Virus record (IMG/VR): IMGVR_UViG_2713896768_000001
Coordinates: 1-17,616 of that record
DNA from: a virus
Lineage: Duplodnaviria; Heunggongvirae; Uroviricota; Caudoviricetes
Length of the DNA: 17,616 nt
Strand: one strand, 5' to 3'
In this document: positions 7,058 through 17,616 of the stretch, in pieces
How the letters are laid out: every line of letters starts with the position of its first letter
Numbering within the stretch: position 1 is the first letter of the stretch
Made by a program: the position numbers and the translations under genes
The notes under the pieces: model-generated
Databases searched by the model: none
Seen by the model: the letters and a program-made list of their open reading frames with translations, nothing else
Told to the model about the DNA's origin: nothing

Positions 7058-9314
7058 CGCAGATACGATTAAAGACTTCCTTGTTTCGCTGGGATTCGAT
7101 ATCGATCAGGCTGGCGCTAATAAGTTTGAAGCCGTGCTGAAAGGCGTTACCGCAAACGTTCTGAAGGTCGGCGCGGTGGTGGAAGGCGCAGCGCTGAGCA
7201 TTGTCGGATTTACCACCCAGATCGCGAATGGTCTGGATAAAATTTACTGGGCATCCCAACGGACGGGGGCCAGCGTCCAGGGCATCAAAGCGCTGGGCTA
7301 TGCCGCGTCGCAAACCGGTGCCAGCGCCGAGTCGGCCATGTCCTCCCTCGAAGGGCTGGCCGGTTTCATGCGTAGCAATCCGGGGGCGGAAGGCTTCCTG
7401 AACCGTCTTGGTGTCCAGACCCGAGATGCCAGCGGAAAGATGCGTGATACTGCGGCCATCTTTACTGGCGTTGGGCAAAAGCTCAACAACATGCCGTATT
7501 ACCGCGCGAAGCAATACGCGCAGATGCTTGGCATCGATGAAAACACGCTGATGGCGATGCGGCGCGGCATGAATGGCTTTACCGCCGATTACCAGTCTAT
7601 GCTGCAAAAGACTGGGTTCAACGCTGATAAGGCGGCTGTGCAGTCCAATAAATTCATGACGTCCATGCGCGGGCTTACGTCGCTGTTCGGCATTATGCGG
7701 GACAAGATCGGCTCAAACCTCGCTGGTGGTCTTGCTGGTTCGCTGGACAGCCTGCGGCGGCGCATCCTCGACAACTTCCCGAAGATTGAAGAGACGCTGA
7801 CCAGAGTTATTAAAGGCGTGATCTGGCTTGCGAACGCCTTCACGCGAATGGCGTGGCGGCTCATACAGGGCGCTGGCTCTGTCATTGACTGGTGGAAGCG
7901 TCTTGACGATGGCAGTAAAAATCTGCTGAAAATATTCGGTGCTCTACTTGTCGCATGGCGTCTGCTTAATTCTGCGTTCCTGAAATCCCCGATTGGAATT
8001 ATCACCACGCTGATTCTGGCGATCGGATTACTCTATGACGATTATCAGACGTGGAAAGAAGGCGGTAAAAGCCTGATTGACTGGTCCAAGTGGGAGCCTG
8101 CAATAGAAAAGGCGAAAAAGGCAATTCTCTGGCTGCGCGATAAGCTTCTGGGGCTGAAAGATTCTGTTGGTGGATGGCAGAACTCGCTGGAAATTTTGGC
8201 TACTTTCATCGCTGGGGTATGGGTAACAAAAGTATTGGGAGCATTCGCAAAAATATCCGGTCTTCCGATACCTCCATGGCTTAAATTATGGGGAGCGTAT
8301 GCTGGTTACCTGGTTTCAGATCGTGAAAACATAAAAGCCAGTGCTAAATCATCTTTGGACTATACCAAAAGGAACATTGGTGATGCTCTTGCTACGGTTG
8401 GCATCAAAACCGACCTTGGGCGAAAAGATGTTAGCGAGGTAAGAGAATGGCCCGCATGGATGGATTGGCTGCATGGTGGCCCAGGTAAGATTATTCGTCA
8501 GGCGCAAAGCAATGGCGTCGTTTATGGCGATAATGTTCAGCCTGACATTCCCGGGGCGGAACAGCATGTTCGTAGTAATGAAATTGCCCCGCATGAAAGA
8601 GATGAAATAAAAAACCGTCAGCAGGCTGCTAATGGTTATCTTGAAAAAATCTCAGACGGGATTGCCAAAATCGGTAATTTATTTTTCTCCCCGGCTGGAG
8701 CTGCTGAAATCTCTCCAAATATATCGGGTGACCCCTCCCAGTTTGCGCAATCAGTCAAACGTCCACAGGCCACAGCCCAGGGCAAAGTATTGCTCGACTG
8801 GATGGGGCCAATGTTCAATAAACTTGAGTCGCTTTATCAACTTCCAGCTGGTCTATTGAAAAGTGTGGCGATAACCGAGTCAGGTGGTAACCAGTTCGCC
8901 ATGTCCGGCGCGGGTGCAAAGGGGCTGTTCCAGTTCATGGATGGCACGGCGCGAGACATGGGCCTGCGTGGTAACGATGTGTTCGACCCGGAAAAGTCAG
9001 CTCAGGCAGCCGCTAAGTACCTTAGCCAGCTATTGCGGCAGAACGGCGGAGACCTTAGCAAAGCACTTGCATCATATAACTGGGGAATCGGGAACGTTCA
9101 ACGTTATGGAATGGGGCTAATGCCGCAGGAAACGCGCAATTACATTCCGAAAGTAATGAGCAATATGCCCACCAGCGCCCCGGTGATTCAGCAGGAAACG
9201 AACATTAACATCCACGGCGTTTCCGATCCTCGCGAAGCTGCCCGTTTGACTGTTGACCGTCAAAAGGGTGTGAATTCACAGTTAACCCAGCAACTCCCCG
9301 CAGGACCGAGATAA
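7047..9314 (+). CDS. Tail tape measure protein with C-terminal soluble lytic transglycosylase (SLT) domain
   Basis: 755-aa ORF following the chaperone. Alpha-helical Ala/Gly-rich N-terminal region, a hydrophobic central segment (…LLKIFGALLVAWRLLNSAFLKSPIGIITTLILAIGLLY…), and a C-terminal SLT signature (…AITESGGNQFAMSGAGAKGLFQFMDGTARDMGL…ASYNWGIGNV…) with the catalytic-type Glu in the E-S-G-G motif near 8877. Confidence 0.75.
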   Translation: MSGNADTIKDFLVSLGFDIDQAGANKFEAVLKGVTANVLKVGAVVEGAALSIVGFTTQIANGLDKIYWASQRTGASVQGIKALGYAASQTGASAESAMSSLEGLAGFMRSNPGAEGFLNRLGVQTRDASGKMRDTAAIFTGVGQKLNNMPYYRAKQYAQMLGIDENTLMAMRRGMNGFTADYQSMLQKTGFNADKAAVQSNKFMTSMRGLTSLFGIMRDKIGSNLAGGLAGSLDSLRRRILDNFPKIEETLTRVIKGVIWLANAFTRMAWRLIQGAGSVIDWWKRLDDGSKNLLKIFGALLVAWRLLNSAFLKSPIGIITTLILAIGLLYDDYQTWKEGGKSLIDWSKWEPAIEKAKKAILWLRDKLLGLKDSVGGWQNSLEILATFIAGVWVTKVLGAFAKISGLPIPPWLKLWGAYAGYLVSDRENIKASAKSSLDYTKRNIGDALATVGIKTDLGRKDVSEVREWPAWMDWLHGGPGKIIRQAQSNGVVYGDNVQPDIPGAEQHVRSNEIAPHERDEIKNRQQAANGYLEKISDGIAKIGNLFFSPAGAAEISPNISGDPSQFAQSVKRPQATAQGKVLLDWMGPMFNKLESLYQLPAGLLKSVAITESGGNQFAMSGAGAKGLFQFMDGTARDMGLRGNDVFDPEKSAQAAAKYLSQLLRQNGGDLSKALASYNWGIGNVQRYGMGLMPQETRNYIPKVMSNMPTSAPVIQQETNINIHGVSDPREAARLTVDRQKGVNSQLTQQLPAGPR

Positions 9315-9916
9315 TGGATATTTTATCAGCGATTTTTCGCCAGCAATCACGGCGAATTGGCCTGCTGATCCCCAGCGTGGTCGTTTCCGAAAAGCATTCT
9401 GATGCGCTCGAAATTACTGAGCACCCGGTGGAGAAGCCAACAACGAATAGCGCCTCGGGTTTCATCGCCGATCATGCGTATAAGCGCCCCAGCGAAGTCA
9501 CAATGGAATGCGGCTTCGCTGGGGGCGGTTCGTTGCTGGACTTCATTGATACATCTTCAATCGGCCTCAGCGCCGGACTGAGCCCGAAAGAGACCTATCA
9601 GCAACTGCTGGATCTCCAGTCCTCCCGGGTGCCGTTCGATGTGGTGACCGGGAAGCGGGTGTACAGCAATATGCTGGTGAGAGCCATCGAGGTGACAACG
9701 GACAAAACCAGCGAGAACGTGCTGAACTGCACGCTTACCCTGCGTGAAGTGATCATGTCGCAAACGCAGAGCGTTAGCGTTGCTGATAAATCAGATATGC
9801 AGGATGGCGTCAGCACATCGGCGGTGCAAAATTCCGGGACGAAATCCACTACACCGCCAAACGAATCTTTGCTGAGCCAGCTGGGCGGAAGCGTTACATC
9901 AGCATTCGGGGGATGA
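9314..9916 (+). CDS. Baseplate-associated protein (position of the Mu gp43/N-like protein; hypothetical)
   Basis: 200-aa ORF whose start overlaps the tape measure stop (TAATG at 9312-9316). Assignment is by synteny with a Mu-like baseplate cluster only. Confidence 0.4.
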   Translation: MDILSAIFRQQSRRIGLLIPSVVVSEKHSDALEITEHPVEKPTTNSASGFIADHAYKRPSEVTMECGFAGGGSLLDFIDTSSIGLSAGLSPKETYQQLLDLQSSRVPFDVVTGKRVYSNMLVRAIEVTTDKTSENVLNCTLTLREVIMSQTQSVSVADKSDMQDGVSTSAVQNSGTKSTTPPNESLLSQLGGSVTSAFGG

Positions 9917-9917
9917 T

Positions 9918-10223
9918 ATGCAGTTTAACGAAATACCGCTTTCTCCTGACAATCAGCAGTTCCGCGTTTTGCTGGGCAATACTACGTATACGCTCAGGAT
10001 CATCTGGCGCGATGCGGCTGGTTGGATTATGGACGTGATGGATAGCGGCGGTGCCGCGCTTCTCTCTGGCGTACCTCTACTGACCGGCGTGAACCTTTTA
10101 CGACAATTTCCACAGCTTGGCATTGATGGTGCGCTGGTGGTGGCGACCGATAAGGGCGCACCAGACGAGCCCACCAAAACCAACCTCGGCACATACAGCC
10201 ACCTCATTTTCGTGCAGGAGTAG
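9918..10223 (+). CDS. Small baseplate/tail protein (hypothetical)
   Basis: 101-aa ORF starting 2 nt after the previous stop; placed by synteny between tape measure and hub genes. Confidence 0.4.
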   Translation: MQFNEIPLSPDNQQFRVLLGNTTYTLRIIWRDAAGWIMDVMDSGGAALLSGVPLLTGVNLLRQFPQLGIDGALVVATDKGAPDEPTKTNLGTYSHLIFVQE

Positions 10224-10225
10224 AA

Positions 10226-11290
10226 ATGTCTCTTAACTGGATGCGCCATTTTGAGTTGCAGCTGTTGGACCAGAACGGGCAGGGTATTTCCCTGTCTGAT
10301 TTTAAGGTCACGTTCCAGATCGAGTGGGCAGATACACGCTGGCCGCGCGTGGCAAACGTGAAAATTTACAACCTTTCGACCGATACCACGAACAAGATAC
10401 TGGGGCAGGAGTTTGCAAAAATTCGCATCATTGCCGGGTATGACGGTATTGCGCCGGATGTTGATGCGAGCCAGGTTGGTGTCGCCCGGGAGATTTCACC
10501 AGACCAGGTAGGGCAGGTGAACGGTCAGAACTACGGCCTGATATTTGACGGTGATATTCGCTTCACCGTCACCGGGAAGGACAACATCACCGATTCCTGG
10601 GTGCTGATTCAGGCCATCAGTAACCACGAAGCGTTCCTCTACGCGACTACCATCACCACGCTTGCCGCTGGCTATACCGTTGCGGATCTGCACCGGGCGA
10701 CGATGCAGGATTTCAACGCGTTCGGCGTGACACAGGGCATTACCGGCGATTTTCCTGATACCGTGTTTCCTCGTGGCCGCGCGATTTACTCATCCAGCCG
10801 CAACGTGATGGATAATATTGCTGCGCAGTGCAAAGCGACATGGCAACTGGTGGATGGTCAGGTCCAGATGGTGCCGGAGGATAAATATATTCACGAAGCC
10901 ATTGTGTTGAATGCCAATACTGGCCTGATCGGTATGCCGCAACAAACGATGGGCGGCGGAGTAAACGTGCGGTGCCTGATAAACCCAAACATCCGTATTA
11001 ATGGTCTTATCCAGCTCGATCAGGCTTCGGTGTACCGCGCCGCGCTCGGCAATAGCGAAATCGCACAGTCGCCCGGGCGTATCACTGAAACGGAAGAGAA
11101 CGGCAACCGCGCACTGACCGGCACAACGTCACAGGCTGCCAGCATTGCGACAGATGGCGTTTATATCGTCAAAGCTATCGACTATACTGGCGACACCAGA
11201 GGTCAGGCGTGGTACATGGATTTGATGTGTTTTGCGCGTGGTGCTCGTGAAATGGTTAGTCAGGACACGCTTAAAAAATGGCAGGTATAA
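10226..11290 (+). CDS. Baseplate hub protein (P2 gpD / Mu gp44-like)
   Basis: 354-aa ORF with an AGGAG RBS. Size and position after tape measure and before the spike gene match the hub of P2/Mu-type baseplates. Confidence 0.55.
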   Translation: MSLNWMRHFELQLLDQNGQGISLSDFKVTFQIEWADTRWPRVANVKIYNLSTDTTNKILGQEFAKIRIIAGYDGIAPDVDASQVGVAREISPDQVGQVNGQNYGLIFDGDIRFTVTGKDNITDSWVLIQAISNHEAFLYATTITTLAAGYTVADLHRATMQDFNAFGVTQGITGDFPDTVFPRGRAIYSSSRNVMDNIAAQCKATWQLVDGQVQMVPEDKYIHEAIVLNANTGLIGMPQQTMGGGVNVRCLINPNIRINGLIQLDQASVYRAALGNSEIAQSPGRITETEENGNRALTGTTSQAASIATDGVYIVKAIDYTGDTRGQAWYMDLMCFARGAREMVSQDTLKKWQV

Positions 11291-11291
11291 G

Positions 11292-11642
11292 ATGGGTAAG
11301 GCCAAACTTCTAATTTGTGGTGTTCTTTTATCAGTTGTCGGCACGTCAGAGGCCTTAGCTGATACTCAGTGCGGGCCGTATCGCCTCACTGCGGGCAAAG
11401 AAGGACTAATGCTTATTAACGGGGTAAAACCTGAAACGCAAAAAATGTCTTTTCTCAAGTCTAAAGATGACTACCAAAACATGAAAGCAGAATGGATGGT
11501 TGCAACCGACCAACCCGGCCGCTGGGTTGGGCTTGAGTACATCAAGCGCAACGGCAAAGCCATTCTCAACGCACAGTGGTTGCAAGCCAGCATGGATTCG
11601 CCGCGTCAGTATGCAACATACGACTGCGTGAAGGTGAAATGA
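11292..11642 (+). CDS. Small exported protein with Sec signal peptide (accessory moron gene; function unknown)
   Basis: ATG at 11292, 2 nt after the hub stop, with an AGGT RBS. N-terminus MGKAKLLICGVLLSVVGTSEALA|DTQCG… has a basic n-region, hydrophobic core and A-L-A signal peptidase I site, with no lipobox. The mature protein is about 94 aa with two Cys. By eye it is AT-richer than flanking tail genes and it interrupts the conserved hub-spike adjacency. Confidence 0.55.
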   Translation: MGKAKLLICGVLLSVVGTSEALADTQCGPYRLTAGKEGLMLINGVKPETQKMSFLKSKDDYQNMKAEWMVATDQPGRWVGLEYIKRNGKAILNAQWLQASMDSPRQYATYDCVKVK

Positions 11643-11659
11643 TGATCCGCATCCTTAAA

Positions 11660-11724
11660 CATCAATAATCGTTGATCTCGCGTTTTTATTATGCACTAAT
11701 CTGTACATGTACAGAGAGGGTGCC
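11660..11724 (+). promoter_or_regulatory. Putative promoter/operator of the toxin-antitoxin operon, including a perfect 14-bp palindrome CTGTACATGTACAG (11701-11714) and a GAGAGGG Shine-Dalgarno
   Basis: 82-nt AT-rich intergenic region. The palindrome was checked by reverse complement and abuts the RBS. A weak sigma70-like pair is possible (TTGATC at 11672-11677, ACTAAT at 11695-11700, 17-nt spacer). Palindromic operators bound by Phd/YefM antitoxins are established for this family. Confidence 0.45.
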
Positions 11725-12138
11725 ATGAAAATCATTACTTACACGCAAATGCGATCGGATTTATCTGCAACGCTGGACTGTTTACGCTCTGGTGAAAGCG
11801 TCACAGTTACGCAGCGCGGAAAGCCCGACCTTGTCATCAGTGCAAAATCAGTTGATGAAATCGCTTCCGCAGATGAGGTAAAAACATCTGCGAAAACAAT
11901 AGACACGCATCTTGCGCAATTAATTGCATCGAATTTGTCACCACAGATAACGGAGGGTGTCATGAAGCTTACTAAGCAATTGGATGCCCTTCTTCAGTCT
12001 GATGAGGCTCGCCAGACTATGATGAAGGCCACTAATGCAGCAGTTGCTTTGCAGGGCGTGTCTGAGTCATTTATCAAAGCTCTGCAACATACTCAGACCA
12101 AGCATGCGGACATCATAAAAAAACTGGAAGATAAGTAA
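11725..12138 (+). CDS. Phd/YefM-family antitoxin with an extended helical C-terminal domain (137 aa; typical Phd/YefM is about 75-90 aa)
   Basis: N-terminus MKIITYTQMRSDLSATLDCLRSGESVTVTQRGKPDLVISAKS matches the YefM/Phd N-terminal fold (compare remembered YefM [41 protein letters not shown]). The ATG at 11725 with a GAGGG SD is preferred over the track start at 11707, which lies inside the palindrome. The stop overlaps the toxin start (TAATG). Confidence 0.7.
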   Translation: MKIITYTQMRSDLSATLDCLRSGESVTVTQRGKPDLVISAKSVDEIASADEVKTSAKTIDTHLAQLIASNLSPQITEGVMKLTKQLDALLQSDEARQTMMKATNAAVALQGVSESFIKALQHTQTKHADIIKKLEDK

Positions 12139-12545
12139 TGACTGAGATTACATTCCTTTCGGTAGATGAGGTCATCGCTATTCAGAAGAGCACATTGCCA
12201 AATAGCGGACAACCAGACCGGGGAAAACTCGAAGGTGCCCTCAATCGCGTCGATAACTTACGCATGTATGAAGGATGTGAGGATTTATTTAAATTTGCAG
12301 CTATGTACATGGTTGCGATAGCGAAGTCTCACGCTTTTAATGACGCCAATAAGCGAACGGCTTTCCAGGCCGCCAGCGTGTTTTTGCTTTTGAATGGCTA
12401 TGAACTGAATACCTCAATGGAGTTAGTCAAGCTGACCATCTTTGCTGCTACGGGAGAGGCCGACTGCGATAACACTGCTTTGGCGCTTAAACTTTTGTCA
12501 GATTATAAGAATGAGCTGCTGGCAGATACGATAACTGGCTACTGA
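12138..12545 (+). CDS. doc: Doc (death-on-curing) / Fic-family toxin
   Basis: 135-aa ORF translationally coupled to the antitoxin. It contains the Doc signature H-x-F-x-D-A-N-K-R (SHAFNDANKRTAFQAASVFLLLNGY, codons at about 12330-12356), compared with remembered P1 Doc …GHIFNDANKRTALNSALLFLRRNG…. Confidence 0.8.
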   Translation: MTEITFLSVDEVIAIQKSTLPNSGQPDRGKLEGALNRVDNLRMYEGCEDLFKFAAMYMVAIAKSHAFNDANKRTAFQAASVFLLLNGYELNTSMELVKLTIFAATGEADCDNTALALKLLSDYKNELLADTITGY

Positions 12546-12567
12546 TAGCAAAAAGTAAATTGTACAC

Positions 12568-12592
12568 AACCCGCCGCCGAGCGGGTTTTTTT
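12568..12592 (+). terminator. Rho-independent terminator (stem ACCCGC / GCGGGT, loop CGCCGA, followed by a T7 run)
   Basis: Read directly: aacccgc-cgccga-gcgggtttttttat, 23 nt after the toxin stop and just before the RBS of the spike gene at 12604. Confidence 0.65.
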
Positions 12593-12603
12593 ATGGAGTT
12601 TTT

Positions 12604-13344
12604 ATGCCAATTCCAACTCAATCACAGATCGGCGGCGAGCAGCAGACCGCGCAGGCCATAGCCGATTCGGTGTCTACCCAGATGCGCGTAGCGATGCCAG
12701 GCATCATTCAGTCGTTCGATCCTGACGCTGTAACCTGCACAGTAGAAGTGGCGCTTCGCGGTATTGTTGGCGACGGCTCCACCGAATTAAAACCGCTGGT
12801 GGATGTTCCTGTCATCTTCCCGCGCGGCGGCGGCTGCACGCTGACCTTTCCGGTTAAAGAAGGCGACGAGTGCCTGCTGCTCTTTGCCGACCGTTGCATC
12901 GATTTCTGGTGGCAGAGCGGCGGCGTGCAGGAGACCGTCGACCCGCGCCAGCATGACTTATCTGATGCGTTCGCCATCGTTGGCCCACAGTCGCAAGCAC
13001 GGAAAATCAGCGGTATCAGTACCAGCGCCGCGCAGCTGCGAACCGATGATGGTGCGGCGTTTGTAGAAGTCGCCGCAGGACATAACATCACCATTAAAAC
13101 ACCGGGCCAGCTTACAGCTACGGCTGAAGGTGGAACGACAATCACATCCCCGACTATCACGCTGAACGGCAACGTAACGATTAATGGCAACTTGTCTCAG
13201 GGAATGGGCGAAAGCGGCGGTACTGCGACGATGCTTGGGCCGGTGACGGTAACGAATGACGTAACAGCTTCTGGTATCAGTGTCGCCACGCATAAACATG
13301 GCGGAGTACAGACTGGCGGGGGAACTACCGGAGGGCCGCAATAA
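12604..13344 (+). CDS. Baseplate central spike protein (P2 gpV / Mu gp45-like) with C-terminal beta-helix and His-x-His tip
   Basis: 246-aa ORF with a GGAG RBS. The C-terminal region is Gly/Thr-rich and repetitive (…TITSPTITLNGNVTINGNLSQG…) and ends …VATHKHGGVQTGGGTTGGPQ (HKH at 13291-13299), matching the iron-binding apex motif known for spike proteins. Confidence 0.6.
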   Translation: MPIPTQSQIGGEQQTAQAIADSVSTQMRVAMPGIIQSFDPDAVTCTVEVALRGIVGDGSTELKPLVDVPVIFPRGGGCTLTFPVKEGDECLLLFADRCIDFWWQSGGVQETVDPRQHDLSDAFAIVGPQSQARKISGISTSAAQLRTDDGAAFVEVAAGHNITIKTPGQLTATAEGGTTITSPTITLNGNVTINGNLSQGMGESGGTATMLGPVTVTNDVTASGISVATHKHGGVQTGGGTTGGPQ

Positions 13345-13697
13345 TGCGATACCGTCGCGAAGATACTGAAGGCGATTACACTTTCGGCCAGGGTGACGAT
13401 ACTTTCCTTATCGACAGTCCGGAATGTGTCGCCCAGGCCGTAAAAACCCGTTTCGAGCTGTGGCGCGGTCAGTGGTTTCTCGATCTGACGGAAGGCACGC
13501 CGTATGTTCAGTCAGTGCTTGGGAAGCAGCGATCAGATGTCTACATCCTGGCTATACGCGAACGCATACAGGATACACCGGGCGTTCTGTCGATTCTTTC
13601 CTTCGATACCAATTATGACGGCACCAGCCGTCGCGTCACCTTCACTTCCTCCATTGACACAATCTACGGCCAGACGACTGTAACAAGCGAGGCATAA
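13344..13697 (+). CDS. Baseplate wedge protein (gp25 / P2 gpW / Mu gp46-like)
   Basis: 117-aa ORF whose start overlaps the spike stop (TAATG). Size and position between spike and J-like genes. Confidence 0.5.
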   Translation: MRYRREDTEGDYTFGQGDDTFLIDSPECVAQAVKTRFELWRGQWFLDLTEGTPYVQSVLGKQRSDVYILAIRERIQDTPGVLSILSFDTNYDGTSRRVTFTSSIDTIYGQTTVTSEA

Positions 13698-14897
13698 ATG
13701 GCTTTGAACCTCGACACGCTGGGGCTATCGGCAACGGTAACCGCCCAGGGGATTAGTGCGCCTGATTACCAGACAATCCTTGATACACTGACCAGCTATT
13801 TCAGGCAGATTTACGGTAGTGATGCCTACCTAGAACCAGACAGCAAAGACGGGCAGATGGTCGCGCTGGTGGCTCTTGCCGTGCATGACGCTAACAACAC
13901 CGCTATCGAGATTTACAACTCGTTTTCACCGATGACAGCGCAGGCCGCAGCGCTTAGCAGCAATGTGAAAATTAACGGGATCACGCGAAAAGTAGCGACA
14001 AACTCTACTGCTGACCTTCTGTTAACCGGTACGGCAGGCACGACTATCACGAATGGCTCCGCACGGGATAAAAACGGCATTATCTGGAATTTTCCAGCGA
14101 GTGTGGCGATCGGCGTTGATGGTACTGTGCTGGTGACGGCCACATGTGCGAATAGCGGTTCGGTTGCGGCGCTGGCCGGGACTATTACCACTATCAACAC
14201 CCCGACCCGAGGTTGGGTGTCGGTAACCAATCCAGTTGCGGCTACTGTCGGTTCACCAGCCGAAACCGACGCAGAGCTGCGCATTCGGCAGGGGCAAAGC
14301 GTCGCGCTACCATCGATCACACCGTTTGAAGGTGTCGACGGTGCTATCGCTAATGTTGCTGGCGTGACACGTCACAAACTATATGAGAACGACACTGGGG
14401 CAACCGACAGCAACGGGCTGCCGCCACACTCTATTTCCGCCATCGTCGATGGAGGGGATGTTACCGAGATAGCCCAGACCATCAGGGGGAATAAAGGGCA
14501 GGGAACGGCAACCTACGGGACAACTTCTGTCACAGTGCCGGATACTTACGGTAATCCTCACGTCATCAGTTTTTCACGCTCTACCGATGTGCCAATTTTC
14601 GTAGCCATTACCCTGAAAGTTTTTACCGGGTATACATCTCAAATCGGCGAGCAGATCAAACAGGCTGTTGCCGACTATATTAATGGCCTGACAATTGGCG
14701 ACGACGTTCTGCTGAGCCGTATTTATTCCCCGGCAAACCTCGGCGTTGTGAGCGGCGGGAATGCCCGCTATTACGATATTACCGACCTGCTGATCGGTAA
14801 GTCGTCTGGCAGCGTATCGGCATCAAACATTGATATTGCCTATGATGCTTCAGCGTCCTGTAGCACCGCGAATATCAGTATCACGGTGACCTCATGA
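13698..14897 (+). CDS. Baseplate J-like protein (P2 gpJ / Mu gp47 / T4 gp6 family)
   Basis: 399-aa ORF starting right after the previous stop; size and synteny are typical of baseplate J. Confidence 0.6.
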   Translation: MALNLDTLGLSATVTAQGISAPDYQTILDTLTSYFRQIYGSDAYLEPDSKDGQMVALVALAVHDANNTAIEIYNSFSPMTAQAAALSSNVKINGITRKVATNSTADLLLTGTAGTTITNGSARDKNGIIWNFPASVAIGVDGTVLVTATCANSGSVAALAGTITTINTPTRGWVSVTNPVAATVGSPAETDAELRIRQGQSVALPSITPFEGVDGAIANVAGVTRHKLYENDTGATDSNGLPPHSISAIVDGGDVTEIAQTIRGNKGQGTATYGTTSVTVPDTYGNPHVISFSRSTDVPIFVAITLKVFTGYTSQIGEQIKQAVADYINGLTIGDDVLLSRIYSPANLGVVSGGNARYYDITDLLIGKSSGSVSASNIDIAYDASASCSTANISITVTS

Positions 14898-15574
14898 GCA
14901 AATACACCGAACTGATCACTAACTACCACGCTACCAAGCCACTCTTTTTTGACCATATAGATCTGAGCACCCGCCCGCTGATTGATGTGTCCAGCACTAT
15001 GTCAGGGCTTATAACAGCCTTCGATATCGATACTGCTGTCGGTGTACAGCTCGACATCCTCGGTCTGTGGATCGGACGCAGTCGCATAGTCAGCCAGCCA
15101 ATTAGCGGAGTTTATTTCAGCTGGGACACTGACGGGCTTGGGTATGACCAGGGCATCTGGCAAGGGCCATATGATCCTGATTCTGGCTATACGACGCTAA
15201 GCGATGAGACGTACCGCATCATTCTGAAAGCGAAAATCGCTATCAACAACTGGGACGGTCGGAACGACTCTCTGCCTCCCATCCTTGACGCTGCTACCGC
15301 AGGCTCAGGCCTGAGGATGCAGATCGTCGACAACCAGGACATGACGATTTCGGTCTGGGTTTCCCCTGAAACTGATATTTCTGATGTGTCTCTCGAACTG
15401 ATCGCCGCTATCAAACAGGGCTATCTCACCGTTAAATCAGCTGGCGTATGGGCCGGTGATGTTGAAACGCCTTCGGTAGAAACACCGTCAGAAGGCTCTA
15501 AATTCTTTGGGTTTGATATGGATAACGAATACATCGGCGGGTTCGATGTTGGAGCATGGGGGACAATACTCTAA
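14894..15574 (+). CDS. Baseplate/tail protein (P2 gpI / Mu gp48-like, DUF2612-type)
   Basis: 226-aa ORF with ATGA overlap to the J-like gene; positioned immediately upstream of the tail fibre gene. Confidence 0.5.
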   Translation: MSKYTELITNYHATKPLFFDHIDLSTRPLIDVSSTMSGLITAFDIDTAVGVQLDILGLWIGRSRIVSQPISGVYFSWDTDGLGYDQGIWQGPYDPDSGYTTLSDETYRIILKAKIAINNWDGRNDSLPPILDAATAGSGLRMQIVDNQDMTISVWVSPETDISDVSLELIAAIKQGYLTVKSAGVWAGDVETPSVETPSEGSKFFGFDMDNEYIGGFDVGAWGTIL

Positions 15575-16515
15575 TGGCAATAAACAACTTTAAACCTTTC
15601 GCGCTTGATCCGAACGCTAACGTCACCTCACAAGCTGACTGGGAAGCACTTCCGGCTCTGCTTTCAGGGTTTACGGCAGGTAAAGCATCCAGCGCACAGG
15701 TCAACAAAGCCATTCGACAGGCCAGCTTTATTGCGGCAGCGCTTGCGCAGTACACAGCCAACAAAAGTGGGCTGGACGTGCTTGATGATGGTGACCTGAA
15801 CGGCTTTATCTCCAAAATGGGAACCGCTTTCGGGAAGGATTTCCAGGCACTTGATGCCACGCTGACGGCATTGGCAGGGCTCGCAACAGGTGAAAATAAA
15901 CTCCCGTATTTCACTGGAAATGATACAGCAGCGCAGACTGATTTAACTTCTGTCGGCCGCGACATTATTGGTAAAAGCACTATTGCTGACATTCTCACAT
16001 ACCTTGGTTTGGGAGAAGGCTCTGCATTACCTGTCGGTGTGCCTGTTCCGTGGCCTTCCGCCACTCCGCCGACAGGCTGGCTAAAATGCAATGGTGCGGC
16101 TTTTTCTGCTGAAGAATACCCGGAACTGGCAAAGGCTTACCCGACAAATAAATTGCCTGATTTACGCGGTGAATTTATTCGTGGCTGGGATGATGGGCGT
16201 AGTGCGGATGCGGGGAGAACAATATTATCCGCTCAGGGCGATGCCATACGTAATATCTATGGTGAGTTCAAGACTGTAAACACCGAAAATTATTCAATAT
16301 GGGAAGTAGCAAGCTCGTTTAAGGGAGCAGTGGTGCCTTTGAGTCCCTCTACAAACAATAGTTATTTCTCCTTAACCAGAAGTATGGTGACAGAAAGGTC
16401 CGAGGGCGGTGTTTACCCAAAAGTGATTGGCCTTGATGCTTCAAGAATTGTTCCAACTGCAAACGAAAATCGACCCCGTAACATTGCCTTTAATTATATC
16501 GTGAGGGCTGCCTGA
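15574..16515 (+). CDS. Tail fibre protein with C-terminal phage tail-collar domain; the C-terminal about 170 aa lie inside the invertible segment
   Basis: The ATG at 15574 overlaps the upstream stop (TAATG); the track start at 15556 is 6 codons upstream in the same frame. The collar-type motif …PVGVPVPWPSATPPTGWLKCNGAAFSAEEYPELAKAYPTNKLPDLRGEFIRGWDDGR… and the ending …RPRNIAFNYIVRAA are typical. A hix/gix-like site sits at codons around Tyr-Leu-Gly-Leu-Gly-Glu. Confidence 0.7.
   Translation: MAINNFKPFALDPNANVTSQADWEALPALLSGFTAGKASSAQVNKAIRQASFIAAALAQYTANKSGLDVLDDGDLNGFISKMGTAFGKDFQALDATLTALAGLATGENKLPYFTGNDTAAQTDLTSVGRDIIGKSTIADILTYLGLGEGSALPVGVPVPWPSATPPTGWLKCNGAAFSAEEYPELAKAYPTNKLPDLRGEFIRGWDDGRSADAGRTILSAQGDAIRNIYGEFKTVNTENYSIWEVASSFKGAVVPLSPSTNNSYFSLTRSMVTERSEGGVYPKVIGLDASRIVPTANENRPRNIAFNYIVRAA
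15992..16017. other. Left crossover site for a Gin/Hin/Pin-family DNA invertase: TTCTCACATACC-TT-GGTTTGGGAGAA
   Basis: Two 12-bp half-sites in inverted orientation (10/12 matching) around a 2-bp core, with 17/26 identity to the remembered gix site TTCCTGTAAACCGAGGTTTTGGATAA. An inverted copy appears at the window end, and a visible composition change begins near here. Confidence 0.6.
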
Positions 16516-17120
16516 TGGATAAAGCTATATTAAATAAGGAACTCATCGCCACAAAGGCGGGAGATATTACCGTTTATAATTATGATGGTGAAACACGAGA
16601 ATATATTTCCACATCAACCGAATATCTTGCTGTGGGTGTCGGTATCCCGGCATGTTCCTGTTTAGATGCTCCTGGCTCATATAAAGCTGGTTATGCAATT
16701 TGCCGTTCTGCAGATTTTAACTCATGGGAATATGTGCCAGACCATCGCGGTGAAATCGTCTATAGCACCGAAACAGGAGAATCAAAAGAAATCACAGCTC
16801 CGGGTGATTACCCTGAAAAGACAACCACTATCGCCCCGTTAACGCCATACGATAAATGGGATGGTGAGAAATGGGTGACGGATACCGAGGCACAGCATAG
16901 AGCAGCAGTAGACATGGCAGAAACACAGCGGCAGTCGCTGATTGATGCTGCAATGGTTTCCATTAGTCTGATTCAACTGAAATTGCAGGCCGGGCGGAAG
17001 CTGACGCAGGCAGAAAACACCCGACTTAACGCCGTGCTGGATTACACTGACGCGGTGATGGCAACAGATACCAGCACCGCGTCAGATGTCATCTGGCCAG
17101 TTCCTCCTGAGACGGTTTAA
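16515..17120 (+). CDS. tfa: Tail fibre assembly protein (Tfa)
   Basis: 201-aa ORF whose start overlaps the fibre stop (TGATG). The C-terminus …LNAVLDYTDAVMATDTSTASDVIWPVPPETV matches the conserved Tfa C-terminal pattern seen in lambda/P2/Mu-type assembly chaperones. Confidence 0.7.
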   Translation: MDKAILNKELIATKAGDITVYNYDGETREYISTSTEYLAVGVGIPACSCLDAPGSYKAGYAICRSADFNSWEYVPDHRGEIVYSTETGESKEITAPGDYPEKTTTIAPLTPYDKWDGEKWVTDTEAQHRAAVDMAETQRQSLIDAAMVSISLIQLKLQAGRKLTQAENTRLNAVLDYTDAVMATDTSTASDVIWPVPPETV

Positions 17121-17376
17121 TCTCAATCAGAATGGGTTCTCCCTTCTCGTTAACAGATATTTCCATTCCTTCAGGGATTTCAGATGCAGTAAAAAACCAG
17201 TTATCTTCTGGTAATTCAACAGCCCCGGTCACGTCATGAAGACCGGGGATTACTTCAGTCAAAGTAACAGGATTAAACAGGCGCACAATAAACCCTCCAG
17301 GAAAAAGCACTTGTTGATGGTGTTCCGTCGTACATCTGGCAGCGGACATAAAAACCGGTATTAGTGACCTGGTCAT
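17089..17376 (-). CDS. Minus-strand ORF downstream of the alternative fibre domain: possible short tfa' or frame-disrupted remnant
   Basis: 95-aa track ORF, but its first 34 codons overlap the Sv' reading frame and no convincing RBS/start follows the Sv' stop. Its 3' end overlaps the + strand tfa by 32 nt. It ends …EIKPSQEELAR. Coding status is uncertain. Confidence 0.25.
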   Translation of the reverse strand: MTRSLIPVFMSAARCTTEHHQQVLFPGGFIVRLFNPVTLTEVIPGLHDVTGAVELPEDNWFFTASEIPEGMEISVNEKGEPILIEIKPSQEELAR

Positions 17377-17616
17377 CCACGATCATTGAAACGTGAACGT
17401 TATTAGATGTGCCCCCATAATCCGTTCCTATTCTTTCCGCTATGCTGATAAAACGTGAAAGCTTAGGTAGCGCAATTGGATAAACGACTTTAGCCAGTCC
17501 ATTATCATTAGAACCCCCCGTTCCAAAGACTTCTATTGCACCATCTGACCAGCGTATCCACGCACCATTGGCATTAGCTCCTCGCTGAATGACATATCTG
17601 GCTTCTCCCAAACCAA
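17273..17616 (-). CDS. Alternative tail fibre C-terminal variable domain (Sv'-like), 5'-partial: open to the window edge, silent in this orientation
   Basis: The - strand frame is open from the window end to the stop at 17273-17275. The track start is a TTG, and the reading frame continues through the crossover site in the same frame as the fibre constant region. Confidence 0.5.
   Translation of the reverse strand, partial: GLGEARYVIQRGANANGAWIRWSDGAIEVFGTGGSNDNGLAKVVYPIALPKLSRFISIAERIGTDYGGTSNNVHVSMIVDDQVTNTGFYVRCQMYDGTPSTSAFSWRVYCAPV
17603..17616. other. Right crossover site for the invertase, truncated by the window end (TTCTCCCAAACC-AA…)
   Basis: The last 14 nt of the window are the exact reverse complement of 16004-16017 (TTGGTTTGGGAGAA), i.e. 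the first half-site plus core of an inverted copy of the left site. The rest would lie beyond the window. Confidence 0.55.

What the first reader, a model, noticed from the sequence alone, without database searches (positions are those of the whole stretch)
11292..11642. Small exported protein of unknown function as a prophage moron
The protein has a clear Sec signal peptide (cleavage after ALA) and a roughly 94-aa mature domain with two cysteines (Cys25 and Cys113 of the precursor) that could form a periplasmic disulfide. Periplasmic prophage moron proteins are known to include superinfection-exclusion and virulence or fitness factors. I do not recognise the family.
Basis: partly seen in the sequence, partly recalled or inferred. 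Interest (0 to 1): 0.5.

Follow-up and report, generated by a model that had tools for sequence, protein, structure and literature searches.

The report
Exported beta-barrel protein beside phage hub
This is a real gene for a small protein that a prophage of gut bacteria exports to the space between the cell's two membranes. It belongs to an uncharacterised family that always sits next to the phage's tail-tip genes, and it most likely helps the host cell block entry of rival phages, though that function is untested.

Summary
The ORF (11292-11642, +, 116 aa) is real. It has a Sec-type signal peptide (…ALA|D) and a 93-aa mature domain, and the two mature-domain cysteines are invariant. They are Cys27 and Cys112, not 25 and 113.

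The context is a SEN34-like temperate myophage tail module. In a hub-based sample, 30 of 34 relatives with hub identity of at least 52% carry this gene directly after the baseplate hub. The other four have a different exported protein or lipoprotein there. Twenty more distant relatives, and phage Pam3, go straight from hub to spike.

The gene is therefore a clade-wide, non-structural insertion, not sporadic cargo. Downstream lies a variable cargo slot (here Phd/Doc) closed by a conserved terminator. Alleles are old and under purifying selection (dN/dS about 0.1). Recombination shuffles them, and they vary most in the first hairpin. One Serratia prophage has five tandem copies.

The best reading is a periplasmic entry blocker (superinfection exclusion), at about 0.35. 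No own promoter was shown and the function is untested.

The parts
11292..11642 (+). Gene for the 116-aa exported protein (PHROG 3443 family), stop codon included
   Evidence: ORF. PHROG hit with E 9e-46. 77 homologues. dN/dS about 0.1.
11292..11360 (+). Signal peptide, residues 1-23: MGKAKLLICGVLLSVVGTSEALA, predicted SPase I cleavage after A-L-A
   Evidence: Read directly from the sequence. The leader varies in sequence but keeps a hydrophobic core plus AxA|D in nearly all of the 57 alleles. Leader dN/dS is 0.74, against about 0.1 for the mature part.
11361..11639 (+). Mature 93-aa domain. The model has eight beta-strand elements and its best fold matches are streptavidin-like beta-barrels. 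Cys27 (11370-11372) and Cys112 (11625-11627) sit on the first and last strands
11376..11414 (+). Most variable part of the mature protein (residues 29-41, the first hairpin), a candidate specificity determinant
   Evidence: 4-8 different residues per column here, against 1-3 in most of the C-terminal half. Three tandem paralogues in Serratia share a near-identical C-terminal half and differ mainly in the leader and this hairpin.
11216..11500 (+). Exchangeable allele module: the last ~25 codons of the hub gene plus the 5' two-thirds of the small gene
   Evidence: Against loci with 100% identical flanks, DNA identity falls to 45-65% here. Identity of the hub's C-terminal 30 aa tracks that of the small protein's N-part (Spearman 0.67).
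11140..11215 (+). Conserved left hinge inside the hub 3' end. It contains a promoter-like TTTATA-N17-TATACT at 11160-11188
   Evidence: Synonymous sites are conserved even in phages whose hubs are about 60% identical. The promoter scan scores 9/12, which is not above chance for the region. Its function was not shown.
11510..11630 (+). Conserved right hinge: the 3' third of the small gene, 96-100% identical between otherwise diverged alleles. It forms the left boundary of the cargo slot
   Evidence: Sliding-window identity profiles against L031, L033, L012 and L009.
11643..12567 (+). Variable cargo slot. In this window it holds a Phd/YefM antitoxin (11707 or 11725 to 12138) and a Doc toxin (12138-12545)
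   Evidence: Pfam, NCBIfam and PHROG hits. The slot is 63-1715 bp long, with many unrelated ORF clusters in related loci. The same toxin-antitoxin cassette is 100% identical in L033, which has a different small-gene allele.
12568..12594 (+). Intrinsic terminator AACCCGCCGCCGAGCGGGTT plus a T-run. It closes the inserted unit just before the spike gene
   Evidence: Terminator scan. A match with up to 5 mismatches is found in 39 of 89 loci, mostly with the stem kept and the loop varying. In cargo-free L051 a terminator follows directly after the small gene.
10226..11290 (+). Baseplate hub gene, the upstream neighbour. Its stop codon lies 1 nt before the small gene's ATG
   Evidence: PHROG 196 baseplate hub, E 1e-84, and Pfam E217_GP41. 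Junction read.
12604..13344 (+). Central spike gene (gpV-like N-domain plus Apex motif), the downstream neighbour
   Evidence: Pfam hits at 2.6e-41 and 3.5e-8.

Best explanation
Well supported (about 0.9): the gene encodes a Sec-exported, non-structural accessory protein of SEN34-like temperate myophages of Enterobacterales. It is predicted to be soluble in the periplasm. The model has eight strands and resembles streptavidin-like beta-barrels, probably stapled by a Cys27-Cys112 disulfide. It is the fixed first gene of an insertion between the baseplate hub and central spike genes. That insertion has the order small gene, optional cargo, terminator.

Inferred mechanism (about 0.35): the protein is made in the lysogen, and also late in infection. 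It waits in the periplasm and interferes with the tail tip of an incoming related phage after adsorption. It could do this by binding the hub, the spike or the tape-measure protein (which carries a lytic transglycosylase domain). Alternatively it could bind a host envelope factor those proteins need. Either way, DNA does not reach the cytoplasm, which is superinfection exclusion at the entry step. The variable first hairpin would set which phages are recognised. Recombination at the conserved hinges and tandem duplication would renew that specificity.

Shown here: export signals, fold, synteny, clade distribution, allele mosaicism, purifying selection.
Inferred: the disulfide, expression from the prophage, the target, and exclusion itself.
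For: - Export: a signal peptide and two mature cysteines are kept in nearly all alleles. Long variants carry a lipobox (…LSGC) plus an extra N-domain at the same position.
- Not structural: hub and spike genes abut or overlap in Providencia phage PSTCR3 and in the 20 evaluable loci with hub identity below 50% (gaps of 9-213 nt). In Pam3 the plug, hub and spike are gp18, gp19 and gp20, consecutive gene products (PMC11633184).
- Tie to the tail tip: the gene lies directly after the hub in every sufficiently flanked locus retrieved by the protein itself (80 IMG/VR loci plus phage records). In the unbiased hub-based sample it is there in 30 of 34 clade members. The other 4 have another exported protein or lipoprotein in that place. 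A distant marine homologue sits between plug and hub.
- Signs of shifting specificity: old alleles are swapped between otherwise identical tail modules. Variation is concentrated in the first hairpin. Serratia aquatilis has five tandem paralogues. Pantoea stewartii has four co-resident prophages, each with a different allele.
- Benefit to the host rather than to the virion: the gene is intact in a decayed Rosenbergiella prophage. An orphan copy lies among ordinary chromosomal genes in Erwinia psidii, and another lies beside fliE in Pantoea vagans.
- Moron-like features: low G+C and a closing terminator.
- Neighbouring cargo is of the defence type, such as Phd/Doc and other two-gene cassettes.
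- Precedent: HK97 gp15 is a tail-operon moron and envelope protein that blocks genome injection (PMC3594210).
Against: - There are no expression data, and no promoter was demonstrated. The gene is packed against the hub stop codon in all loci. The only promoter-like site scores 9/12, lies inside conserved hub coding sequence and is not above chance. Scans of the tandem array found no excess of promoters.
- There is no match to any PADLOC defence model and no similarity to a known exclusion protein.
- The mature protein is under plain purifying selection (dN/dS about 0.1). No positive selection was shown.
- Small-protein alleles do not co-vary with tape-measure or spike alleles (Spearman 0.1-0.3).
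- Up to five prophages of this tail type coexist in one Pantoea stewartii genome, four of them carrying the gene. Any exclusion is therefore not general.
Confidence: 0.35

Rival explanations
1. The protein is a periplasmic inhibitor or immunity protein against envelope-acting enzymes or toxins that do not come from phage entry, such as lysozymes, proteases, or T6SS, colicin or tailocin effectors. The barrel would bind and neutralise an enzyme that reaches the periplasm, and the variable hairpin and tandem arrays would match different effectors.
For: - Small periplasmic beta-barrels often act as inhibitors (own knowledge: the Inh/APRin, MliC/PliC and staphostatin types).
- Tandem arrays of diverged paralogues and orphan chromosomal copies resemble immunity-gene repertoires.
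Against: - There is no sequence match to any inhibitor or immunity family.
- This reading does not explain the strict association with hub and spike genes of one phage clade.
Confidence: 0.15
2. The protein is a lysogenic-conversion or fitness factor unrelated to defence. It would be a small ligand-binding periplasmic barrel (calycin or avidin-like in logic) that changes nutrient handling, stress tolerance or host interaction of the lysogen.
For: - The fold class (streptavidin-like barrel) is typical of small-ligand binders.
- The mature protein is under purifying selection.
- Orphan copies lie outside recognisable prophage tail modules in Erwinia psidii and Pantoea vagans.
- Many morons are fitness factors (PMC3594210).
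Against: - Avidin-family membership is rejected.
- A housekeeping-type ligand binder would not be expected to show allele shuffling, hairpin hypervariability and tandem diversification.
- The family is very narrow (60 clusters among 1.84 billion representatives, a few of them spurious hits to repeat proteins) and is almost always attached to one tail module.
Confidence: 0.15
3. The protein has a late lytic-cycle function. It would be made only with the tail genes and exported late in infection to modulate lysis timing. Alternatively it would protect the infected cell from superinfecting particles or lysis from without, or stop progeny from injecting into doomed cells.
For: - The gene is tightly coupled to the hub gene (-8 to +12 nt) in every locus, with no demonstrated promoter of its own.
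- This would place it in the late transcript.
- T4 Spackle and RI are exported proteins that act during infection (own knowledge).
Against: - A conserved terminator sits directly after the unit in the middle of the tail operon, which fits a prophage-state transcript better.
- Intact copies persist in a decayed prophage and as chromosomal orphans, where no late transcription exists.
- Low G+C marks it as an add-on.
Confidence: 0.15
4. The protein is a virion or assembly component of the baseplate, and the hydrophobic N-terminus is not a signal peptide.
For: - The gene lies between the hub and spike genes and is co-oriented and coupled with them.
- The marine homologue also lies within the baseplate genes.
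Against: - The leader has a canonical n-h-c architecture with AxA, and it evolves like a signal peptide.
- Cysteines are conserved and lipoprotein variants exist.
- The gene is absent from functional phages with the same module: PSTCR3, yong1 and EKP1, and Pam3 (PMC11633184).
- It has no fold match to solved baseplate proteins.
Confidence: 0.03
5. The protein is a divergent avidin or streptavidin-family biotin binder exported to the periplasm.
For: - There is a local match to chicken avidin (FIDRNGKEVLKTMWLL against YIKRNGKAILNAQWLQ). The PDB profile E-values are about 0.8. hhalign against an avidin plus streptavidin pair gives 65% probability over 27 columns.
Against: - None of the 49 family members hits Pfam Avidin, even at E up to 10.
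- Against an 18-sequence avidin-family profile the hhalign probability falls to 0.45%, E 0.13.
- Sequence identity in the structural matches is only 6-8%.
Confidence: 0.02

Closest known systems
HK97 gp15 (tail-operon moron; superinfection exclusion)
   Same: Both are small envelope-targeted proteins encoded by an insertion inside the tail operon of a temperate enterobacterial phage. Both have atypical G+C and bacterial homologues outside prophages. gp15 blocks genome injection in a way that depends on the incoming phage's tail (PMC3594210).
   Different: gp15 is a single-pass inner-membrane protein of the YebO family. It lies between the chaperone and tape-measure genes and has its own promoter. 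Here the protein is predicted to be a soluble periplasmic beta-barrel after the hub gene, no promoter was shown, and there is no sequence relation.
T4 Spackle (Sp), a periplasmic inhibitor of the tail-associated lysozyme gp5
   Same: Own knowledge: Spackle is a small protein with a signal peptide that acts in the periplasm on the cell-puncturing apparatus of a superinfecting phage. The phage here also carries a tail-borne peptidoglycan hydrolase, an SLT domain at residues 589-689 of the tape measure.
   Different: Own knowledge: Spackle is an all-helical protein of a lytic phage, and its gene is not in the tail module. There is no sequence or fold similarity, and no evidence here that the SLT domain is the target (no allele covariation).
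Lipoprotein exclusion factors: T5 Llp, Cor of phi80/N15/HK022, Ltp of phage TP-J34
   Same: These are phage-encoded, exported and envelope-anchored small proteins that block entry. Ltp targets the tape measure (own knowledge; PMC3952083 for the Ltp family). Long variants of the present family are lipoproteins at the same locus.
   Different: The window protein has no lipobox: its Cys9 lies in LLIC, only 8 residues from the N-terminus. There is no sequence similarity. Llp and Cor act on an outer-membrane receptor and are linked to the receptor-binding protein, whereas this gene is linked to the hub.
Avidin/streptavidin family (Pfam PF01382), streptavidin-like fold
   Different: Profile tests fail, so this is fold-level resemblance only. 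Nothing indicates biotin binding.
Phage accessory-gene (moron or defence) hotspots, such as those of P2-like phages
   Same: Two conserved core genes flank a slot with many alternative cargo types, including toxin-antitoxin modules, and the cargo is exchanged by recombination at conserved boundaries.
   Different: Here the slot has a resident, almost always present first gene (this exported protein, or in four cases another exported protein). It also has a shared terminator, and it lies inside the baseplate genes.

Membership tests
Moron (as summarised in PMC3594210, which cites Juhala et al. 2000) | Extra DNA between two genes that are adjacent in related phages | tested here: met
   Hub and spike genes abut or overlap in PSTCR3 and in the 20 evaluable genomic loci with hub identity below 50% (gaps of 9-213 nt). 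In Pam3 the plug, hub and spike are gp18-gp20 (PMC11633184).
Moron (as summarised in PMC3594210, which cites Juhala et al. 2000) | G+C content differs from that of the surrounding genes | tested here: met
   In the window the small gene is 48.7% G+C, against 53.4% for the hub and 57.8% for the spike. The small gene is lower than the hub in 54 of 59 alleles, and GC3 is 49% against 58-60%.
Moron (as summarised in PMC3594210, which cites Juhala et al. 2000) | Own transcription terminator | tested here: met
   A hairpin plus T-run at 12568-12594. Matches recur across loci, mostly with the stem kept and the loop varying, and in cargo-free L051 a terminator follows directly after the small gene. Termination activity was not measured.
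Moron (as summarised in PMC3594210, which cites Juhala et al. 2000) | Own promoter, with expression from the repressed prophage | tested here: inconclusive
   There is no intergenic space (-8 to +12 nt). A single 9/12 promoter-like site at 11160-11188 lies inside conserved hub coding sequence and is not above chance. No transcript data are available.
Moron (as summarised in PMC3594210, which cites Juhala et al. 2000) | Sporadic, patchy distribution among close relatives | tested here: not met
   The gene is present in 30 of 34 clade members sampled by hub and in all but three of the 23 phage records with hub identity of at least 52%. It is the downstream cargo that is patchy.
Sec/SPase I-exported periplasmic protein | An n-h-c signal peptide with a small-x-small cleavage site and no lipobox or twin-arginine motif | tested here: met
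   Read from the sequence and kept in nearly all of the 57 alleles despite sequence turnover. No dedicated predictor or experiment was available.
Sec/SPase I-exported periplasmic protein | Actual export, and a disulfide that depends on the periplasmic Dsb system | not testable with these tools
   This needs PhoA or BlaM fusions, cell fractionation and dsbA or Cys-to-Ser mutants.
Avidin/streptavidin family (PF01382) | Match to the family profile | tested here: not met
   Pfam: none of 49 members matches at E up to 10. hhalign against an 18-sequence avidin profile gives probability 0.45%, E 0.13. Only a 27-column local match to an avidin plus streptavidin pair was found.
Avidin/streptavidin family (PF01382) | Eight-stranded streptavidin-like barrel fold | tested here: met
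Known anti-phage defence or exclusion protein families (PADLOC-DB, Pfam) | Sequence match to a described defence or exclusion protein | tested here: not met
   PADLOC returns no families at E up to 1. Pfam and NCBIfam return nothing meaningful.
Periplasmic lysozyme inhibitors MliC/PliC (PF09864) | Match to the family profile or a close fold match | tested here: not met
Baseplate structural protein | Present wherever the module builds a virion, and cytoplasmic | tested here: not met
   The gene is absent from isolated phages with the same module, and the protein carries an export signal. Virion proteomics was not available.

The most novel reading that the evidence does not exclude
The family is a new class of allele-specific periplasmic gatekeepers. 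The exported barrel would recognise the tail-tip complex of an incoming SEN34-like myophage through its variable first hairpin. One candidate target is the variable C-terminal tail of the hub, which is inherited with the hairpin as a single recombination module. Binding would arrest penetration between the two membranes. Recombination at two conserved hinges and tandem duplication would generate new specificities. The same site would then recruit further defence cargo behind it.
Probability: 0.12. Interest if true: 0.7.

Novelty: new member of a known kind. Interest (0 to 1): 0.42.

Why it matters
Entry-blocking proteins made by prophages help decide which phages can infect clinical Enterobacterales. 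This matters for phage therapy and for gene flow between strains. Few such proteins are understood in Gram-negative bacteria, and I know of none that is a soluble periplasmic beta-barrel.

The family is small and easy to clone. Its natural allele series, hairpin variants, tandem arrays and lipoprotein fusions would make specificity mapping straightforward.

Whatever the protein does, the analysis defines a previously undescribed accessory-gene hotspot inside the baseplate genes of SEN34-like prophages. It has a resident exported protein, exchangeable cargo such as toxin-antitoxin modules, and a shared terminator. That is useful for prophage annotation and for finding new defence genes.

Tried and rejected
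- **Foldseek.** Searches against PDB and BFVD gave no significant hit. The best viral match was a Serratia phage Scapp "lipoprotein", E 0.087. The afdb50 library was unavailable.
- **Coupling to a target.** Small-protein alleles do not co-vary with tape-measure, spike, plug, Dit, gp25 or J alleles beyond background. Only the adjacent hub C-terminus co-varies, and linkage can explain that. An association with the tail-fibre receptor-binding region could not be tested properly, because the fibres are highly mosaic and often cut off in the loci.
- **Promoter search.** Nothing exceeded chance upstream of the gene or within the Serratia tandem array.
- **Rfam.** Only a sub-threshold Trp_leader hit on the terminator was found.
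- **Positive selection.** Pairwise dN/dS shows purifying selection, and dS is near saturation between allele classes, so site-specific tests were not attempted.
- **Literature.** Searches on SEN34, exclusion plus periplasm, and baseplate hotspots found no paper on this protein.
- **Long repeat-protein hits.** The long repeat proteins examined from the remote search were composition-driven false positives.
- **Complex prediction.** Predicting a complex with the SLT domain or hub tail was not attempted.

Full report
**1. Observation**

The + strand ORF from ATG 11292 to TGA 11640-11642 encodes 116 aa:

MGKAKLLICGVLLSVVGTSEALA|DTQCGPYRLTAGKEGLMLINGVKPETQKMSFLKSKDDYQNMKAEWMVATDQPGRWVGLEYIKRNGKAILNAQWLQASMDSPRQYATYDCVKVK

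The N-terminus has the n-h-c layout of a Sec signal peptide, with A-L-A before the predicted cut. The mature part is 93 aa. Its two cysteines are Cys27 and Cys112. A third cysteine, Cys9, lies in the leader.

The hub gene's stop codon ends at 11290, so the two genes are 1 nt apart.

**2. It is a real, conserved, exported protein**

- A word-indexed search found 77 homologues, none with a Pfam domain, and all those that carry a name are called "hypothetical protein" (further members).
- In a 49-sequence alignment both mature cysteines are invariant. The C-terminal 45 residues are highly conserved and the leader is not.
- Across 57 distinct alleles from related loci, all but two show a hydrophobic leader ending in AxA|D, and 55 have exactly two mature cysteines. 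One allele (L069) looks damaged at its N-terminus. The two SEN34/Mulock-type alleles were not parsed by the script, but they also start hydrophobic and carry two cysteines.
- Pairwise Nei-Gojobori estimates give dN/dS of about 0.74 for the leader, 0.11 for residues 24-75 and 0.06 for residues 76-116. This is the pattern expected of a cleaved signal peptide in front of a constrained domain.
- Long variants of 265-292 aa carry a lipoprotein lipobox (…LSGC), a ~190-aa extra domain and the same barrel. They occupy the same genomic position, which again places the barrel in the cell envelope.

**3. Family and fold**

- There is no hit in Pfam, NCBIfam or PADLOC. The only match is PHROG 3443, "unknown function", E 9e-46.
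- A full HMM search of 1.84 billion representatives found only 60 clusters, a few of which are spurious hits to repeat proteins. The family is narrow.
- AlphaFold2 with the family alignment gives pLDDT 84, pTM 0.71 and eight strand elements.
- The first and last strands carry the two cysteines, so a disulfide that staples the barrel shut is plausible.
- A striking local match to chicken avidin did not survive a broader avidin profile (probability 0.45%). No family member hits Pfam Avidin. The resemblance is therefore at fold level only.

**4. Context in the window**

The surrounding genes form a tail module in this order:

| Coordinates | Gene |
|---|---|
| 7047-9314 | Tape measure, with an SLT lytic-transglycosylase domain at residues 589-689 |
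| 9314-9916 | Dit-like protein |
| 9918-10223 | Pam3-gp18-type plug |
| 10226-11290 | Hub |
| 11292-11642 | The small gene |
| 11707-12138 | Phd antitoxin (11725 by the RefSeq start) |
| 12138-12545 | Doc toxin |
| 12568-12594 | Terminator |
| 12604-13344 | Spike |
| 13344-13697 | gp25-like protein |
| 13698-14897 | J-like protein |
| 14894-15574 | DUF2612 protein |
| 15556-16515 | Tail fibre |
| 16515-17120 | Tail-fibre assembly protein |

G+C drops from 52-58% to about 45% across 11290-12600.

A 98.4%-identical stretch lies in the E. coli ECONIH5 chromosome, in a prophage beside torT. The isolated relatives are temperate myophages such as SEN34 (PMC5261728).

**5. Synteny and distribution**

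- Loci retrieved with the protein itself comprised 80 IMG/VR loci plus phage records. Wherever flanks are present, the gene lies directly after the hub and before the spike.
- To avoid circularity I sampled by hub, using one genome per species. In the clade with hub identity of at least 52%, the family is present directly after the hub in 30 of 34 evaluable loci. The other four have a different exported protein or lipoprotein as the first gene after the hub.
- In the 20 evaluable loci with hub identity below 50%, the hub-to-spike gap is 9-213 nt and nothing is inserted. These include Photorhabdus, Xenorhabdus, Morganella, Burkholderiales and Nitrospirota.
- Providencia phage PSTCR3 likewise runs from hub straight into spike. 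In Pam3 the plug, hub and spike are gp18, gp19 and gp20 (PMC11633184).
- Hafnia phage yong1 and "Elizabethkingia" phage EKP1 lack the family. EKP1 has another 108-aa protein with a signal peptide there.
- The gene is therefore a clade-specific, non-structural insertion. In this clade the position after the hub is reserved for envelope-targeted proteins.
- Six loci carry the small gene alone, with gaps of about 390-430 nt. This suggests it was the original insertion.
- A distant marine homologue lies between plug and hub.
- An intact copy persists in a decayed Rosenbergiella prophage that has lost the hub. Orphan copies occur in Erwinia psidii and Pantoea vagans.

**6. Architecture of the insertion**

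- Downstream of the small gene lies a slot of 63-1715 bp with many unrelated cargo types. These include Phd/Doc, a DUF4236 protein on the minus strand, other secreted proteins, two-gene cassettes and a membrane protein.
- The slot is closed by a terminator, AACCCGC-loop-GCGGGTT plus a T-run. In most matches the stem is kept while the loop varies. In cargo-free L051 a terminator follows the small gene directly.
- Sliding identity profiles show two independently assorting modules. Against L031 the flanks are 100% identical, but identity drops to 45-65% over 11216-11500. That stretch covers the last ~25 hub codons plus the 5' two-thirds of the small gene. Identity returns to 96-100% at 11510-11600, is lost again across the cargo, and returns at the terminator.
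- L033 shares the toxin-antitoxin cargo at 100% identity but has another small-gene allele. L009 shares the small-gene allele but has other cargo.
- The left hinge (11140-11215) is conserved at synonymous sites even in phages with about 60% hub identity. It contains a 9/12 promoter-like site. I cannot tell whether it is a promoter, a recombination hinge or both.

**7. Variation**

- The most variable stretch of the mature protein is residues 29-41, the first hairpin.
- Serratia aquatilis carries five tandem paralogues, one of them truncated. Three share a near-identical C-terminal half and differ mainly in the leader and first hairpin.
- Pantoea stewartii ATCC 8199 holds five prophages of this tail type. 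Four of them have the gene, all with different alleles (52-72% identity).
- Small-protein alleles do not co-vary with tape-measure or spike alleles (Spearman 0.1-0.3). They co-vary only with the adjacent hub C-terminus (0.67), which linkage could explain.

**8. Interpretation**

The anatomy is well supported: exported barrel, non-structural, resident first gene of a hub-spike accessory locus.

For function I favour a periplasmic entry blocker, that is, superinfection exclusion (about 0.35). Five observations point that way:
- the protein is in the compartment the incoming tail tip must cross;
- the gene is tied to tail-tip genes across deep divergence;
- its alleles and paralogues diversify in one hairpin and are shuffled between otherwise identical phages;
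- it is retained where only the host can benefit;
- it sits beside defence-type cargo.

There are also precedents: HK97 gp15 (PMC3594210), Ltp-type lipoproteins (PMC3952083), and T4 Spackle and T5 Llp (own knowledge).

Four points count against it:
- no promoter or expression evidence;
- no similarity to known exclusion proteins;
- plain purifying selection;
- tolerated polylysogeny.

The rivals are an inhibitor or immunity protein against other periplasm-acting enzymes (0.15), a ligand-binding fitness factor (0.15), a late lytic-cycle role (0.15), a structural role (0.03) and a biotin binder (0.02).

**9. Novelty and verdict**

The family is catalogued only as a PHROG of unknown function, and no paper on it was found.

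The "moron" label is only partly apt. The small gene is a clade-wide fixture coupled to the hub gene, whereas the neighbouring Phd/Doc cassette is the freely exchanged moron.

If the function is exclusion, this would be a new member, with a new fold, of a known kind of prophage-encoded entry blocker. Interest is moderate. It is not very surprising, but it is cheap to test and comes with a well-defined natural allele series.

Noticed in passing
window 11700-12545: An intact Phd/YefM-Doc toxin-antitoxin cassette: Phd at 11707 or 11725 to 12138, Doc at 12138-12545 with the HxFxDANKR motif. A perfect 16-nt palindrome, TCTGTACATGTACAGA, lies at 11700-11715 across the start region and is probably the operator. 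The cassette has about 45% G+C and is 100% identical in prophages that carry a different small-gene allele (L033).
   Followed up: partly
window 12511-12594: Rfam gives a sub-threshold Trp_leader match (28.4 bits, gathering score 41) over the conserved terminator upstream of the spike gene. This is most likely just the hairpin plus U-run and not an attenuator.
   Followed up: no
L120 5092-7745 (Serratia aquatilis chromosome): Five tandem paralogues of the small exported protein lie after the hub gene, one of them truncated. Three have near-identical C-terminal halves but different leaders and first hairpins.
   Followed up: partly
L090 8001-8879; L101 5099-5989; L106 5075-5941: Long lipoprotein variants at the same position: a lipobox, an uncharacterised ~190-aa N-terminal domain (no Pfam hit) and the barrel. 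In L117 (5086-6210) a lipoprotein carries a similar N-terminal motif (YKKRPGW…) but gave no hit to the barrel profile.
   Followed up: partly
window 11140-11215 (hub 3' end): Nucleotide-level conservation, including third codon positions, across phages whose hubs are only about 60% identical. The stretch contains TTTATA-N17-TATACT at 11160-11188. It could be a recombination hinge, an embedded promoter, or both.
   Followed up: partly
window 7047-9314 and 12604-13344: The C-terminal half of the tape measure (which holds the SLT domain, residues 589-689) and the C-terminal part of the spike are themselves mosaic among near-identical tail modules. Mean pairwise identity is 0.66 and 0.67, against 0.90-0.92 for the hub core and gp25.
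   Followed up: partly
L095 371-709 (marine metagenome contig): A distant homologue (E 2e-7 to the family profile) is placed between the plug and hub genes instead of after the hub, in a phage with the same baseplate module.
   Followed up: no
L088 (phage EKP1) and L114 (Chryseobacterium sp. 18061 assembly): Records attributed to Flavobacteriia hosts (Elizabethkingia, Chryseobacterium) carry this enterobacterial-type tail module, with hub identity of 52-63%. L114 also has the small gene. The host assignment or the purity of the assembly may be wrong.
   Followed up: no
window 16515-17616; L006 19701-21710: In the near-identical ECONIH5 prophage, the fibre and assembly genes are followed by inverted copies of a tail-fibre assembly gene, a gp53-like fragment and a frameshifted recombinase. 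This suggests an invertible host-range segment. The minus-strand ORFs at 17089-17611 in the window may be part of it.
   Followed up: no
L099 6001-6342 (Rosenbergiella collisarenosi): The small gene is intact inside a decayed prophage that has lost the hub and has a truncated spike. It lies next to a T5orf172-domain gene and toxin-antitoxin genes of the RelE/MqsA type.
   Followed up: no
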